Source: Eledone cirrhosa (lineage: Eukaryota). Taken from it: 64,000 bases of DNA. This document shows positions 894-62,591 of the stretch, in pieces. Position numbers and translations under genes: made by a program. The notes beneath the pieces are model-generated. The model did not search any database. It was not told the origin of the DNA and saw nothing but the letters and a program-made list of their open reading frames with translations. Where the stretch lies: NCBI GenBank assembly GCA_964016885.1, contig OZ024746.1, positions 35,464,001-35,528,000 on the forward strand. The letters are read 5' to 3'. Each line of letters begins with the position of its first letter. Within the stretch, counting starts at the first letter, position 1.

Positions 894-1418
894 TTTCGTT
901 TCTGAATTTGAAAAGACGCAATGTTTAAATAATTCACAGAGGCAATAAACATAAATGAATTCCAACTAAAATTAAATAGAAAACATGAATGGAACAGCAA
1001 CATCGCAACATTCAATTACGGACAAAATGAAAACACACACGCACATAGAACAAACGACCAACCGGTAACATGTAAATAAATAAATAAATAAACAAATATA
1101 AACACACACAGACACCCGGATGTAACACATGCGCAAACTAAGAACACAACACACACAAAAACAAGATGGCGTAGGACAGAACAAAGGAGAGGCACACAAA
1201 CAAAGAAAATAATCCCCAGTCACCGAAGAGGTCACATAACGTGTGACGAAAGAACTTTGACAATATATAAACAATCATCTGGTTGTGGAACCAACCAACC
1301 AACCAACCGAAAATTTATTAATTCCTAAATTTATCAATTTATTATAATAAATTGAAGTGATATCAACTGGTACGTGTGTTTCTTATTGGCAACATGACCC
1401 TCCCAAAGTATAACAATA
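894..1418 (+). mobile_element. PLE terminal-repeat remnant, family A, with HHR
   Basis: 1168-1418 is homologous to 34101-34350. 894-910 is the reverse complement of the family end at about 34392-34408. Embedded in (TA)n. Confidence 0.7.
1219..1261 (+). ncRNA. Minimal type I hammerhead ribozyme (U4C variant)
   Basis: GTCA-CCGAAGA-G-GTCACAT/AAC/GTGTGAC-GAAA-GAAC-TT-TGAC; stem I GTCA/TGAC. Confidence 0.7.
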
Positions 1419-1491
1419 TATATATATATATATATATATATATATATATATATATATATATATATATATATATATATATATATATATATAT

Positions 1492-1763
1492 AATAAATGT
1501 AATCGGAGCTTTTCGAATATTAATAATAACATTCGATTCGTTTTTTTGCAATTGTGCAAACATCCTCAATTTTATAGCCATGTCAGTAGAATGAACACTT
1601 TATTCTCGCTCTTGTGTTCGCATGCCAACACAAGAGCAAGAATGAAGTGTTCATTCTACTGACATGGCTATAAAATTGCAAACGAATCAAATATTATTAT
1701 TAATATTCGAAAAACTCAGATTACATTTATTGTATTCAGCCATGTAGAGCGAAATTTTATTTT
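1492..1763 (+). mobile_element. Fold-back 5'-truncated PLE insertion, family B
   Basis: Arms about 1492-1618 and 1626-1731 around GCATGC, then unpaired tail 1732-1763. Same sequence as 8310-9292; (TA)n on both sides. Confidence 0.8.
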
Positions 1764-1807
1764 ATATATATATATATATATATATATATATATATATATA
1801 TATATAT

Positions 1808-2019
1808 AACGAAGGAATTGTGGTAAGGAACCAGATGAACCATAAAGCACCAGAGTACTCAATATTTAGGGTAGTAGAGTGGGAAATAGGAAAAAAGTAT
1901 GATGCTGACGGCAGAGCTCAAGCCGTTTCGACGTATTGGTGTTCATGTTTCGATATATCGTCCAGAAATAGCTGTCGAAACGGCTTGAGCTCTGCCGTCA
2001 GAGTCATACTTCTTCCTAT
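1808..2019 (-). mobile_element. Fold-back PLE-like remnant with unpaired tail
   Basis: Inverted arms 1886-1932 and 1974-2019. Tail 1808-1885 carries AATATTGAGTACT on the minus strand. Flanked by (TA)n. Confidence 0.7.
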
Positions 2020-2443
2020 ATATATATATATATATATATATATATATATATGTATATATATATATATATATATATATATATATATATATATATATATATA
2101 TATATATATATATATATATATATATGCCGACAGGTCTGTATGTGTCATACCGATCTCTATATATACATTGTTTATATAGATTCACAAAACGTTAGTACAT
2201 CGACACGTAAAATTGTCAAATATATATATTTCACAGTAAACTGAAAAAAAATAAGCAAAAAAATACCTTGATAAATACCTTGAATCGTCTGTGGTACCTA
2301 GACAGAAATTATATATATCTTCTCAAATACCACAATGAAATAGTTCACTGAAGGGCATATATGCTCTGTCACCTCTATTAGTGTCCTGACAAGGGCGGTC
2401 TCATTTGTATTATTGCTCATATTGGTAGTCAATTACGTTATAT

Positions 2444-2889
2444 GGACATGGACTTTTAGTCCTGCCTATGGCCAGCAAAACCATGCACTACAAGAAATGT
2501 TATATATCAACCGATGCCTGTGTTTAACGCTTTTTTAAGTGAGGAAAGTCTTTGCACGGGCCCAAACCCATTCTCTGATTATGAAATTAGGTTATATATC
2601 AAGTAGTGCGTTAGACATCCGAGGAACATGATAAAGTAATATGGACATATATACAGGTTAAACGTGGCCGAGAGATACATACGTACATACATGATGATGG
2701 CTGCAATTCGATTTCGAGTAATGCCATCGCTTGATGCTTCAGCATGAGCCTCACGGACATGGACTTTTAGTCCTGCCTATGGCCAGCAAAATCATGCACT
2801 ACAAGAAATGTTACATATCGACCGATTCCTGTGCTTAACGCTTTTTTAAGTGAGGAAATGCTTTACACGGGGCCAATCACATTCTCTGA
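2444..2889. repeat. Direct repeat of about 135 bp with 311-bp period
   Basis: GGACATGGACTTTTAGTCCTGCCTATGGCCAGC...CATTCTCTGA at 2444-2578 and 2755-2889. Confidence 0.9.
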
Positions 2890-3934
2890 ACATGGAATGC
2901 ATTAAAAAAGAACTGGTCTACATCAGTAGATGCAAACGAAGTCACAGGGCAACATCAGAGCCACCTTCTCATAGATAGATGTCTGAATGAAGACTAGGAG
3001 TCTCTCGCTCAAAAATAAAAACAACAACTTTATTCGATGCCCGTTGACTCTCCTGAGTTCGTTCGCCCTATACATATATATATATATATATATATATATA
3101 TATATATATATATATATATATATATATATATATATATATATATATATATATATATATATATATATATATATATATATATATCCATGGTTTTATCAATACT
3201 TAAAATCATTTTAGATCCATAAATATTGATATGTATTTAATTTACATTTTTTGATGTCATAAGTAATGTAGGGACAATGTGTGTGAAATACCGCAGCAGA
3301 AGAAAATGATTTTAAATAGTTGAAATAAAATTTTCAAGAAAACACATTCACGAGTTGATATCTAGTAATTCCTATTTACTAAGTTTAAAATCCCAACCTA
3401 AACCCCGCCATCTATTCTTCAGCTGTATTCTAATGTTCAACCCCAAATTCACCAGGGAAGTATTCTTCAATTCAAAGAGACCATATTTAACATGAAATTC
3501 TACATACCAGTTGCTGACATAGCATACTGTACAAAAAACGTTGTGTATTTGAACTGTTACATGAATAACTGTCTCATAATATTAGGGCTATGTGACAGTC
3601 TTATAATAACGCTAGAAATAGCAGCCAAGGGATCGTTTGGCATCTAAACAAATCAAGAGCAGCTTATAAATAATTAAATATTAATTAGTCTTTAATACTT
3701 AAACATCTCAATGAATGGATAATATATATATATATACGTGCGTGTGTGTGTATAGACACATACATATAGATACAGATGTTTATTTATTTTATATAGAAAT
3801 GTAGAAATGACTTTTACAGGACTAGAAATGTTTCCATCATATGAAATCACACTGAATGGGCTATATATATATATATATATATATATATATATATATATAT
3901 ATATATATATATATATATATATATATATATATAT

Positions 3935-4340
3935 ATAGTATAAAAAAACGAAAAATCATTGATGCATCTACACTCAGTTTATTGCGTGTTACAATTGTTT
4001 CGCCGGCAGGTAGCTCGAGACATGATTACTGTATGGATCTGGCTGATTCTATATGGATCTGGCTGCAGGTTCCTTCGGACACATGCAATTCATTCGGAGC
4101 AAATTTTCTCCGAAAGAATTGCATGTGTCCGAAGGAACCTGCTAACGTAGAATCAGCCAGATCCATACAGTGATCATGTCTCGAGGTACCTGCCGGCGAA
4201 ACAATTGTAACACGCAATAAACTGAATCCAGATGCATCACTGATTTTTCGTTTTTTTATACTATTCACACCTCTGCTCTGTAAGAATATTGAGTGCTAAT
4301 TTTGGCATACCGCCTATGGAAGCTCAATAGTACCATTATA
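3935..4340 (+). mobile_element. Fold-back PLE remnant with extended-stem-II HHR and 3' tail
   Basis: Near-perfect palindrome 3935-4264 centred near 4103. Tail 4265-4340 contains AATATTGAGTGCT. (TA)n on both sides. Confidence 0.8.
4125..4213 (+). ncRNA. Hammerhead-like motif with long stem II insertion and variant core
   Basis: GTGT-CCGAAGGA-(about 60 nt)-GAAA-CAATTG-TA-ACAC followed by AATAAA; similar to 56702-56792. Confidence 0.5.
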
Positions 4341-60927: not shown

Positions 60928-61185
60928 ACACAGACAACCATGCAGAACAACTCCATCGCAGCTCTGTTGTTCGGCTGGCATCGTCTACTCGCGTGTTGCG
61001 CAAGTACTGTGAAACAATAAATTTCAACACTTTTTTGCACAGAGATAATATCCATAGGCGAAACTACAATTGTCACTGCTGGCGCAGCTCCTGCTTCAAG
61101 GTCTGCAATTCATTCACCTAGTGCCTGGCAGACAAAAAAGTGCTGCCATAAAATGGGTGGTGCAACCTAACTTTGGTAACATAAT

Positions 61186-61217
61186 GACCCCGAGCAACGC
61201 CGGACTTTAATGCTAGT
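61186..61217 (+). mobile_element. Helitron-like 3' terminus
   Basis: CCCGAGCAACGCCGG GC-rich hairpin followed after about 10 nt by CTAG|T. Confidence 0.6.
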
Positions 61218-61521
61218 ACATAATATAGGTAAATATTCAAATTGTTTTTTCCCCCAAATTAACGTATATAAGTGGTGTTCTTTTTCTTTTTACTTTTTCT
61301 TTTTCTTTCTTTCTCTGCCTACTAATATATCTAAACTTACCAGAGCGTTTAAAATAACGGTTTTTGAATCATATAAATCAACCTCATTTACATTTTTATT
61401 TGCATACTCATACTCACAATTTTGAAAAATACGTTCTTTAAATTCACTATCCAAGGAAAATTCAACTGATAAGGTATATTTTCTTGGCTATGTAAACATT
61501 TATAAAACATACTTTGTATTT

Positions 61522-61620
61522 TATCTGTTGAAAGCGTACCAAAGATTTTGGTAACATTGAAACATATATAATAGAATAAATATGGTTTATAAATATAGTT
61601 TCCATTTATTTAATATCATT
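61522..61620 (+). mobile_element. Family E-related remnant with decayed HHR
   Basis: TAT-CTGTTGA..TACCAAA/GAT/TTTGGTA..GAAA-CATATA-TA-ATA; downstream sequence matches 58261-58305. Confidence 0.6.
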
Positions 61621-61887
61621 GTATATATATATTTATTGTATATATATATATATTTATATATATATATATTTATTGATATATATACGAGTCTGTGGGTTTG
61701 GGTGTGTGTGTATCACGTGCCGGTATATTAGAGGAATGAGGGTTTGAGAAATTCAATCACAATATGTGGTACCTTGAGACAACATCAATGGACGCCCATC
61801 GGATCGATTGAATCTTTAATTCAAATGTCCAGCCTTTCATATTTGGCCCCACGAATTCAGGGGACATATGTCTGCCGAACACTCAGC

Positions 61888-62097
61888 CGATGAATTCTAA
61901 TCACAGAGTCCCCATGTCATGTATATATATATATTTATATATATATATATATACATACAGTATATACATATATATATATATATATATATATATATATATA
62001 TATATTTATATATATATATATATGTATATACTGTATGTATATATATATAAATATATATATATACATGACATGGGGACTCTGTGATTAGAATTCATCG
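61888..62097. repeat. Inverted repeat centred on a (TA)n tract
   Basis: CGATGAATTCTAATCACAGAGTCCCCATGTCATG...CATGACATGGGGACTCTGTGATTAGAATTCATCG; the TA-tract interruptions are also mirrored. Confidence 0.92.
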
Positions 62098-62509
62098 TTC
62101 TGCATCCCCTGCATTATAATTCATCGTTCTGCATCCCCCTGCATAGAACCACAAAGGTACTAAGACATAACATATATATTTGCTAGCATGGGTGTACATC
62201 GCTACACATATGTTGGTAGATGTACTAATCTCTATATTTATCTCCAAATTATTTGTTGAGCAAAACTTGCCAGAATTTACTGCTGATTCATGATAGTAGT
62301 AGGCTCTTGTCATAATACCACCCCGCTCCTAACTGATTAACCTCAGTGTCACGTGATTGATTCTTTAGAATCTGATACTGACCAGAGGCTGTGAATTTTT
62401 TCAGTGCTCTAGAATTTAGTCCTCGCTAGCTTCATTCCATCCACTGAATTATTATTTTTATATGGGTTCCTAGTGTCCGCGCATCGCCTGGGAACTTAGC
62501 TGAGAATAG

Positions 62510-62591
62510 ACTCCCTGATGACGTAAGGAATTCTCTATAGTTATATTACGTAAATATATTTATCCCCTTACAGAAACTAATTAGTTGGAGT
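62510..62591 (+). ncRNA. Hammerhead with enlarged loop II
   Basis: ACTCC-CTGATGA-C-GTAAGG-(about 37 nt)-CCTTAC-A-GAAA-CTAATTAG-TT-GGAGT. Confidence 0.8.

What the first reader, a model, noticed from the sequence alone, without database searches (positions are those of the whole stretch)
894..62591. Dense multi-family Penelope-like/hammerhead system colonising (TA)n microsatellites
Seen: about 20 type I hammerhead motifs (stem I - CUGANGA - stem II - GAAA - short palindromic stem III - UH) in at least 10 unrelated sequence contexts within 64 kb. Most are followed by AATAAA or a variant and sit in short inserts bounded by (TA)n. One is physically linked to a GIY-YIG domain. Known: PLE terminal repeats carry minimal HHRs with palindromic stem III, and some PLE clades target microsatellites. 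Inference: much of the apparently unique sequence between TA tracts is PLE terminal debris, implying an unusually large and diverse ribozyme load in this genome.
Basis: partly seen in the sequence, partly recalled or inferred. Interest (0 to 1): 0.9.

Follow-up and report, generated by a model that had tools for sequence, protein, structure and literature searches.

The report
Penelope retroelement hammerheads flood TA repeats
The ribozyme-like motifs are real: they are the tail ends of many families of Penelope-like jumping genes that sit in TA repeats, roughly a quarter of a million of them in this genome, and the Neptune-type families carry an extra first gene that is likely joined to the enzyme gene by an HIV-like ribosomal frameshift.

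Summary
Confirmed in substance. The window holds 14 descriptor-intact type I hammerheads (shuffles 0.13) and 25 recognisable copies in 14 families. 16 of 19 lie within 200 nt of (TA)n (control 20%); exact AATAAA follows only 8 of 19. Six families were traced to Penelope-like RT/GIY-YIG ORFs (Neptune, Hydra, Nematis-like); eight were not. Whole-genome patterns give about 2.6x10^5 motifs above control, more than any count in the papers read. PLE debris is only 11-16% of non-microsatellite sequence. Hammerheads in PLE terminal repeats and TA targeting are published. New here: four Neptune families (44-56% identical) have a coiled-coil ORF1 overlapping RT-EN in the -1 frame at an in-frame T TTT TTA (40 of 43 copies), and 66 of 78 ORF1 homologues end in Phe-Leu preceded only by T-ending-codon residues. 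A -1 frameshift is likely but untested; no stimulatory structure was found. The scan noted both themes before in other genomes (e1-7582939, e1-7882047).

The parts
1219..1261 (+). Family A hammerhead, core CCGAAGA (U4 changed); Nematis-like PLE 3' end
   Evidence: family lies about 204 nt behind an RT/GIY-YIG ORF
1975..2010 (+). 3' half only of a family L hammerhead (U3-A8 core, long stems II and III in whole copies), inside an inverted pair
   Evidence: whole copy in L230
3985..4083 (-). Family K hammerhead-like motif, long stem II, 8-nt core box; left arm of inverted pair
   Evidence: did not pass the descriptor
4124..4214 (+). Family K hammerhead-like motif, right arm, followed by AATAAA
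   Evidence: did not pass the descriptor
8479..8527 (-). Family B hammerhead, 10-nt palindromic stem III
   Evidence: 1,587 pattern matches genome-wide, control 0
8917..8965 (-). Family B copy with U16.1 changed
11852..11884 (+). Family C hammerhead, cut off after GAAA
13022..13111 (+). Family Q copy (U3-A8 type, long stem II), worn core
   Evidence: read by eye against L066/L077 copies; covered by the library
28128..28185 (-). Family D hammerhead
34152..34194 (+). Family A hammerhead, intact core
41115..41150 (-). Family E copy, worn stems
42666..43007 (+). GIY-YIG end of a 5'-truncated Neptune-type PLE (family F), preceded by a short inverted piece of its own 3' end (42638-42670)
43008..44250 (+). 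Family F 3' pseudo-LTR with an internal TA tract, ending at (TA)n
   Evidence: contigs of runs X1-X4 join the pLTR ends to TA (table 7)
44077..44114 (+). Family F hammerhead, U3-A8 core TTGAAAA, stem III ACCGGT, then AATAAA
52133..52170 (-). Family F hammerhead, left arm of head-to-head pair, one change in stem III
52243..52280 (+). Family F hammerhead, right arm
52564..52628 (-). Family G hammerhead (Hydra clade), A9 changed
53192..53227 (-). Family E hammerhead, stem III ACGT
   Evidence: 2,413 exact copies, control 0; Neptune-type EN upstream in 2 of 30 loci
55932..55985 (+). Family H hammerhead (Hydra clade) in a 100-nt insert between TA tracts
   Evidence: 1,659 exact copies, control 0
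56317..56355 (-). Family I hammerhead (Neptune), left arm of head-to-head pair
56448..56486 (+). Family I hammerhead, right arm
   Evidence: 380-400 nt behind the EN in longer copies
56702..56792 (-). Family K-type hammerhead, CTGAGGA core, about 70-nt stem II
   Evidence: intact relative in L079
57574..57618 (-). Family J hammerhead
57967..58032 (-). Family G hammerhead, left arm of head-to-head pair
58198..58263 (+). Family G hammerhead, right arm
58588..58642 (+). Family P copy (CCGA core in the family), worn
61517..61578 (+). Family G hammerhead, A6 changed
62510..62591 (+). Family M hammerhead, 50-nt stem II, 10-nt palindromic stem III

Best explanation
The motifs are minimal type I hammerhead folds in the 3' terminal repeats of many Penelope-like retroelement (PLE) families, left in (TA)n tracts as short 5'-truncated and often head-to-head copies, likely by target-primed reverse transcription; in the Neptune-type families a coiled-coil ORF1 overlaps the RT-endonuclease ORF in the -1 frame at T TTT TTA, where ribosomes likely frameshift. 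Shown: motif excess, fixed 3' ends joined to TA, linkage of six families to RT/GIY-YIG ORFs, pLTR-ORF-pLTR layout, genome-wide counts, the conserved heptamer. Inferred from known PLE biology: the GIY-YIG domain with its Cys linker nicks (TA)n; reverse transcription starts at the 3' end and mostly stops early, so the hammerhead, 50-200 nt from the end, survives in nearly every copy while the ORF is lost; later copies nest in the same tracts. Inferred: the palindromic stem III pairs between two hammerheads (dimer) or with protein help to trim precursor RNA; most orphan copies are probably inert. Inferred: most ribosomes make ORF1 alone and a few slip -1 to make ORF1-RT-EN.
For: 14 motifs against 0.13 in shuffles. 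Stem I, absent from the search pattern, pairs over >= 4 bp in 27 of 30 loci against 3.2 shuffled. Family H ends 46 nt after the motif and runs into TA in 22 of 30 loci. Same-strand ORF upstream at a fixed distance: F 51 of 77 hits, I 16 of 20, A 17 of 21 (these loci were partly fetched by ORF, so the fractions are not frequencies); G and H in fetched long copies; E 2 of 30. Full-length F: pLTR-ORF1-ORF2-pLTR with a hammerhead in each pLTR. Counts: 170,896 against 11,363 control; 81,666 against 170; 24,503 against 0. Frameshift: -1 overlap with in-frame heptamer in 4 of 4 families with full-length copies, intact in 40 of 43 junction copies; ORF2 has no shared early Met (first Met at 48, 70, 163); 66 of 78 ORF1 homologues of >= 340 aa have Phe-Leu in the last 45 residues (shuffles mean 7.0, max 16; control window 5 of 78), never preceded by K, E, Q, M or W, which lack T-ending codons (21% of tail residues, P 1.5e-7).
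Against: Eight of 14 window families (B, C, D, J, K, M, P, Q) showed no family-linked ORF among 32, 18, 4, 1, 8, 7, 7 and 5 copies; the few upstream hits were other insertions or unconfirmed single cases. Monomer minimum-energy folds of several copies do not adopt the hammerhead fold. PLE min-HHRs cleave poorly in vitro (PMC4209133), and in Anolis Poseidon hammerhead mutants still insert in vitro (PMC11167929). No stimulatory hairpin or pseudoknot was found behind the heptamer (z -1.5 to +0.9; pseudoknot score reached by 22-60 of 60 shuffles). The DNA of the outside ORF1 homologues was not seen, so their link to RT ORFs is assumed. No RNA or protein data.
Confidence: 0.82

Rival explanations
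1. Several of the ORF-less families are non-autonomous non-LTR retrozymes or SINE-like elements moved by PLE enzymes, not truncated autonomous PLEs.
For: A 311-bp tandem array with a hammerhead in every unit, flanked by TA, exists in this genome (L231); families B, C, K, M show no linked ORF; retrozymes are proposed to derive from PLEs (10.64898/2026.07.22.740005).
Against: Window copies are single or head-to-head, not tandem arrays. Family E looked ORF-less in 28 of 30 loci yet has an EN in 2, so absence in small samples is weak.
Confidence: 0.3
2. ORF2 is reached by splicing: TTTTTTAG is a 3' splice acceptor, and the conserved T run is a polypyrimidine tract, not a slippery site.
For: F, N3 and N4 read TTTTTTAG and I has an AG 6 nt later, all in the same phase; PLEs are known to hold introns (PMC4209133); no frameshift stimulator was found.
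Against: ORF1 stays open through and past the heptamer in all four families and always in the -1 relation; no phase-2 GTRAG/GTAA donor in the three ORF1s checked; 20 of 66 homologues have a residue after Phe-Leu that cannot give AG; a tract would not be held in frame as Phe-Leu.
Confidence: 0.12
3. The motifs are chance matches in AT-rich, repeat-rich DNA.
For: The descriptor gives false hits in an AT-rich satellite (L070: 11 of 50 hits at score >= 8).
Against: Shuffles, reversed-pattern controls, stem I pairing that was not searched for, and fixed position in pLTRs.
Confidence: 0.01
4. ORF1 and ORF2 are joined by transcriptional slippage on the T run, or ORF2 starts by re-initiation at an internal or non-AUG codon.
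For: No RNA stimulator found; N3 and I have a Met at ORF2 residues 70 and 48.
Against: A run of six T is short for polymerase slippage (recalled); the Met positions are not conserved and F has none before residue 163.
Confidence: 0.08

Closest known systems
Minimal hammerheads (min-HHR) in pLTRs of metazoan PLEs (Cervera & de la Pena 2014, PMC4209133)
   Same: Type I fold, short palindromic stem III, extra base after A9 in some families, U3-A8 core variant, many unrelated families per genome, mostly orphan or opposite-strand pairs.
   Different: About 2.6x10^5 motifs against 2,000-9,000 per genome in that paper; families with 50-70-nt stem II, a 17-nt stem III, a fixed GCAA box or a CCGA core.
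Neptune clade PLEs (as described in Craig et al. 2021, PMC8557442)
   Same: RT, CX2-5CxxC linker, C-terminal GIY-YIG, (TA)n insertion, pLTRs, inverted 5'-truncated partner.
   Different: The paper's text calls EN+ PLEs single-ORF; here four families have a separate 400-440-aa ORF1 in -1 overlap. Its Fig. 1 legend mentions an ORF1 with a frameshift, but the figure was not visible, so the clade meant is unknown.
Hydra clade PLEs (PMC8557442, section 11)
   Same: DKT motif, CxCX5C linker, C-terminal EN, (TA)n targeting, hammerhead (families G and H).
   Different: 3' UTRs of 1.1-1.7 kb and tens of thousands of copies; RWK motif and single ORF not confirmed, since no whole copy was obtained.
Athena/Terminon EN-minus PLEs with coiled-coil ORF1 and -1 frameshift (details recalled; the 2017 paper was not held)
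   Same: Coiled-coil ORF1, U6A slippery site (recalled), 3' hammerhead.
   Different: Athena lacks EN and attaches to telomeres; here EN is present, the target is (TA)n, and no pseudoknot was found.
Non-LTR retrozymes (PMC7229834; 10.64898/2026.07.22.740005)
   Same: Type I hammerheads at very high copy number (up to 120,000 in axolotl, by section heading).
   Different: Window copies are not tandem 150-450-bp units; one such array was seen elsewhere in the genome (L231).
HIV-1 gag-pol -1 frameshift (PMC4373837, search listing only)
   Same: Heptamer U UUU UUA; Gly is the commonest next residue (25 of 66).
   Different: No stimulatory stem-loop found; the ORF1 model is long helices, not a capsid fold.

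Membership tests
PLE minimal type I hammerhead | Catalytic boxes CUGANGA (or U3-A8 variant), GAAA and UH in order | tested here: met
   14 in window against 0.13 shuffled
PLE minimal type I hammerhead | Stems I and II pair | tested here: met
   stem I >= 4 bp in 27 of 30 loci chosen without it, shuffles 3.2
PLE minimal type I hammerhead | Palindromic stem III | tested here: met
   10 of 12 families examined; A and J imperfect
PLE minimal type I hammerhead | Located in both pLTRs of a PLE | tested here: met
   family F L032, L033; N3 L131
PLE minimal type I hammerhead | Self-cleavage (dimer or protein-assisted) | not testable with these tools
   no bench data
Rfam hammerhead families | Covariance model score at gathering threshold | tested here: not met
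   no hammerhead hit
Neptune clade (F, I, N3, N4, E) | RT followed by C-terminal GIY-YIG | tested here: met
   Pfam RVT_1 E 4.9e-6 (26.8 bits, under its 29.6 cut-off) and GIY-YIG E 3.7e-6; E known from its EN end only
Neptune clade (F, I, N3, N4, E) | CX2-5CxxC linker with long spacer before GIY | tested here: met
   motif in each family, compared by eye with Fig. S2 rows
Neptune clade (F, I, N3, N4, E) | Single ORF, as stated for canonical EN+ PLEs | tested here: not met
   two ORFs in -1 overlap in F, I, N3, N4; a frameshift would still give one fused protein
Neptune clade (F, I, N3, N4, E) | Placement in an RT tree with reference clades | not tested
   no reference sequences were available to the tools
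Hydra clade (G, H) | DKT motif and CxCX5C linker | tested here: met
   DKT in L205 (G); CxCX5C in L200, L204, L205, L206
Hydra clade (G, H) | RWK motif, single ORF under 3 kb | tested here: inconclusive
   RWK not found in 4 loci, all 5'-truncated or broken
Nematis clade (A) | Cys linker with short spacer before GIY | tested here: inconclusive
   spacing resembles the Nematis rows by eye; no tree, no whole copy
Naiad clade | N-terminal EN, no canonical hammerhead | tested here: not met
   EN is C-terminal and hammerheads are present
Non-LTR retrozyme | Tandem 150-450-bp units, each with a hammerhead, no ORF | tested here: not met
   not in the window; met by L231 elsewhere
-1 programmed ribosomal frameshift | X XXY YYZ heptamer in the ORF1 frame, ORF2 open in -1 | tested here: met
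   4 of 4 families, 40 of 43 copies
-1 programmed ribosomal frameshift | Downstream stimulatory hairpin or pseudoknot | tested here: not met
-1 programmed ribosomal frameshift | Trans-frame protein made | not testable with these tools
   needs reporter or mass spectrometry

The most novel reading that the evidence does not exclude
Endonuclease-bearing Neptune PLEs are two-gene, gag-pol-like elements: a widespread, unnamed coiled-coil ORF1 (834 cluster representatives) is joined to RT-EN by a conserved U UUU UUA -1 frameshift that works without an evident RNA stimulator, and this genome, with about a quarter-million hammerheads in three PLE clades, is the densest ribozyme-bearing genome in the literature searched.
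Probability: 0.45. Interest if true: 0.68.

Novelty: new variant of a known kind. Interest (0 to 1): 0.5.

Why it matters
The function of PLE hammerheads is an open question. Young, near-identical families with intact ORFs and varied ribozyme forms (U3-A8, GCAA, long stems) give natural variants to test dimer and protein-assisted cleavage. If the frameshift holds, the single-ORF picture of endonuclease-bearing PLEs is incomplete, reconstitution of Neptune elements would need the ORF1-fused protein, and there would be a large set of natural U6A sites without an evident stimulator. For annotation, about 90-100 motifs per Mb explain a visible part of the short sequence between TA tracts.

Tried and rejected
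First strict descriptor found 0 motifs: it allowed no bulge, no extra base after A9 and no U3-A8 core. Rfam gave only microsatellite and hairpin noise and two tRNA-like hits. DNA search of the own genome with a family G stretch returned nothing because common words are skipped. No RNA holder listed. Runs X1-X4 (one study, kind not on record) showed no GT-AG joint at the heptamer among the joints listed, 14 not shown; contigs cannot show absence. Metagenome scan for ORF1 loci: 596 pattern hits, none confirmed. Search for fused longer forms of ORF2: 2 weak hits. ORF1 fold: no PDB match at E <= 0.001 with either model; the wide structural search was not run. Atlas neighbours were gag-like at 0.78-0.83, below the 0.9 level, so a Gag relationship is a lead only. 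Hairpin and pseudoknot search behind the heptamer was negative. Hits at 908, 31789, 51032 and 55051 were dropped as low-scoring or microsatellite-made. Satellite L070 was left out of the density and TA tests. A first coverage figure (17%) was inflated by overlapping loci and redone. In one search the 62515 core was entered one base off, which does not change its distance class.

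
Full report
Setting. The window is G000:C6:35464001-35528000 of a 3.0-Gb genome, 33% GC and dense in (TA)n tracts. Its repeats look like those of an octopus; that is recalled and was not tested.

Observation. A first strict scan found nothing. Descriptors allowing the features published for PLE hammerheads (extra base after A9, U3-A8 core; PMC4209133, parts 1-2 of 4 read) found 10 perfect-core motifs at score >= 8 against 0.13 in 100 shuffles and, with long stems allowed, 14 against 0.13, max 2. 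Homology to intact copies gave 19. Six more have long stem II or worn cores. Total: 25 copies in 14 families. Four are head-to-head pairs inside inverted repeats. (TA)n lies within 200 nt downstream of 16 of 19 window motifs (control 19.8%) and 23 of 30 motifs in sampled DNA (control 20.9% in the same loci). Exact AATAAA follows 8 of 19 and 15 of 30 (controls about 4.5%). Stem I, not part of the pattern, pairs over >= 4 bp in 27 of 30 loci against 3.2 in shuffles. Rfam has no hammerhead hit here.

What they belong to. The GIY-YIG at 42666-43007 is the 5'-truncated end of a young family F: 20,470 first-look candidates, 150 scored, 21 of them by my count in a 775-codon open frame. Whole copies read pLTR-ORF1-ORF2-pLTR with the U3-A8 hammerhead in each pLTR; ORF2 carries RT and GIY-YIG with the Neptune-type Cys linker (compared by eye with supplement part 54 of PMC8557442). 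Family I lies 380-400 nt behind another Neptune EN and family A about 204 nt behind an RT-EN with a Nematis-like linker. Families G and H lie 1.1-1.7 kb behind Hydra-type RT-EN ORFs with DKT and CxCX5C (definition in section 11). Family E has a Neptune-type EN upstream in 2 of 30 loci. B, C, D, J, K, M, P and Q showed no family-linked ORF in 1 to 32 copies each. Family H ends 46 nt after the motif and runs into TA in 22 of 30 loci, with variable 5' ends: the mark of 3'-anchored, 5'-truncated insertion. Contigs of four public runs of one study join the F pLTR ends to TA (table 7).

Load. Whole-genome patterns: 170,896 against 11,363 for the reversed control (4-nt stem III), 81,666 against 170 (TAYRTA stem III; about 3 of the 100 listed matches also fit) and 24,503 against 0 (U3-A8). 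Together about 2.6x10^5 above control; other classes were not counted, and the first two patterns do not demand stems. In 39 stretches of 10 kb at round coordinates (not a formal random draw) 40 motifs scored >= 9 against 1.35 in 20 shuffles; dropping 3 in one AT-rich satellite leaves 37, about 95 per Mb, or 2.9x10^5 genome-wide. Counts track TA tracts (rho 0.65, P 8e-6); 14 of 15 stretches with <= 3 tracts have none. The window (14 in 64 kb) is about twice the sample mean. Published figures that I saw: 2,000-9,000 min-HHRs per genome (PMC4209133) and up to 120,000 retrozymes in axolotl (PMC7229834, passages). PLE-assigned sequence covers 11-16% of the window's 57,188 non-microsatellite bases, 25-42% in gaps under 1.5 kb and 2-5% in longer gaps.

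Two ORFs and a slippery site. In all four Neptune families with full-length copies (F, I, N3, N4; ORF2s 44-56% identical) an ORF1 of about 400-440 aa overlaps ORF2 by 70-163 nt in the -1 frame, and the overlap holds T TTT TTA in the ORF1 frame, intact in 40 of 43 junction copies. The family I ORF1 was broken in the copies fetched. ORF1 has no Pfam family, 6 homologues by word search and 834 cluster representatives by profile, the best 150 all under 500 aa. Of 78 homologues of >= 340 aa, 66 have Phe-Leu in the last 45 residues (shuffles 7.0, max 16; control window 5), and the preceding residue is never one without a T-ending codon. This is what a conserved T TTT TT(A) would leave. The ORF1 core models as long helices (pLDDT 89, 106 sequences) with no PDB match. 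Against: no hairpin or pseudoknot behind the site, a splice-acceptor reading fits the local sequence, and the homologues' DNA was not seen.

Mechanism. Shown: anatomy, counts, TA junctions, heptamer. Inferred: EN nicks (TA)n (linker hypothesis in PMC8557442, passages), reverse transcription from the 3' end with early stops and inverted partners, nesting in the same tracts; hammerheads act as dimers or with protein help (PMC4209133; PMC11167929, passages, where hammerhead mutants still insert in vitro); low-rate -1 slippage makes ORF1-RT-EN.

Prior art. Hammerheads in pLTRs, many families per genome, the U3-A8 core and TA targeting are published. Craig et al. call EN+ PLEs single-ORF, as does PMC6431247 (passages), but the Fig. 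1 legend of the former mentions an ORF1 with a frameshift for a clade I could not see. Searches for Neptune+Penelope+ribosomal frameshift and Penelope+GIY-YIG+slippery gave 0 papers; searches listed none on this point; two searches listed no octopus hammerhead survey, and the searchable supplements of PMC4209133 name no octopus (one of its files was not searched). Arkhipova et al. 2017, Lunse et al. 2017 and Gladyshev & Arkhipova 2007 were not held; what I say of Athena's frameshift is recalled. Also seen: 10.64898/2026.07.22.740005 (part 1 of 5), PMC3846280, PMC5408684 and PMC6765202 (passages), PMC4373837 (listing only). The scan's own notes report a similar slippery site in a coral PLE and similar hammerhead clusters in another genome; these are unchecked notes, not support.

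Verdict. A real, largely known kind of feature at an unusually high load, with one structural twist, the two-ORF Neptune layout, that is well supported by sequence and untested at the bench.

Noticed in passing
L231 (G000:C1:1238500-1245500) 1218-5951: Retrozyme-like array: 311-bp units, each with a hammerhead, in two inverted blocks (5.2 and 9.4 copies), flanked by long TA tracts.
   Followed up: partly
L127, L128, L131 (family N3): The hammerhead has GCAA in place of GAAA together with the U3-A8 core, fixed across many young copies.
   Followed up: partly
L230 5513; window 1890-2016: Very common family L: U3-A8 core, about 55-nt stem II and a 17-nt stem III with its own loop, so it might cleave as a monomer.
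   Followed up: partly
L226 2480-6350: A family N4 copy in which ORF1 and ORF2 form one 1,289-codon frame, apparently through a length change in an A run just behind the heptamer.
   Followed up: partly
L066 636-2274: Family Q hammerheads in tandem at 592-bp spacing.
   Followed up: no
window 12491-12754: 264-bp inverted repeat holding two head-to-head tRNA-like sequences (Rfam 49.7 and 35.1 bits); the inverted layout resembles the PLE pairs.
   Followed up: no
window 6385-6736, 11342-11451, 22268-22424, 33448-33794, 34839-35030, 36999-37370, 41560-41742, 50912-50990: A dispersed short repeat of about 190 bp without a hammerhead, SINE-like.
   Followed up: no
window 60471-60930: Tandem array of about 91-bp units.
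   Followed up: no
window 2900-3073: Repeat with a CTGAATGA box and a small hairpin but no GAAA, ending at a TA tract; 2-3 relatives in fetched loci.
   Followed up: partly
L217 1575-4712, L218 3-2207: Long open frames of an apurinic-endonuclease/RT non-LTR retrotransposon (1,046 and 735 codons).
   Followed up: no
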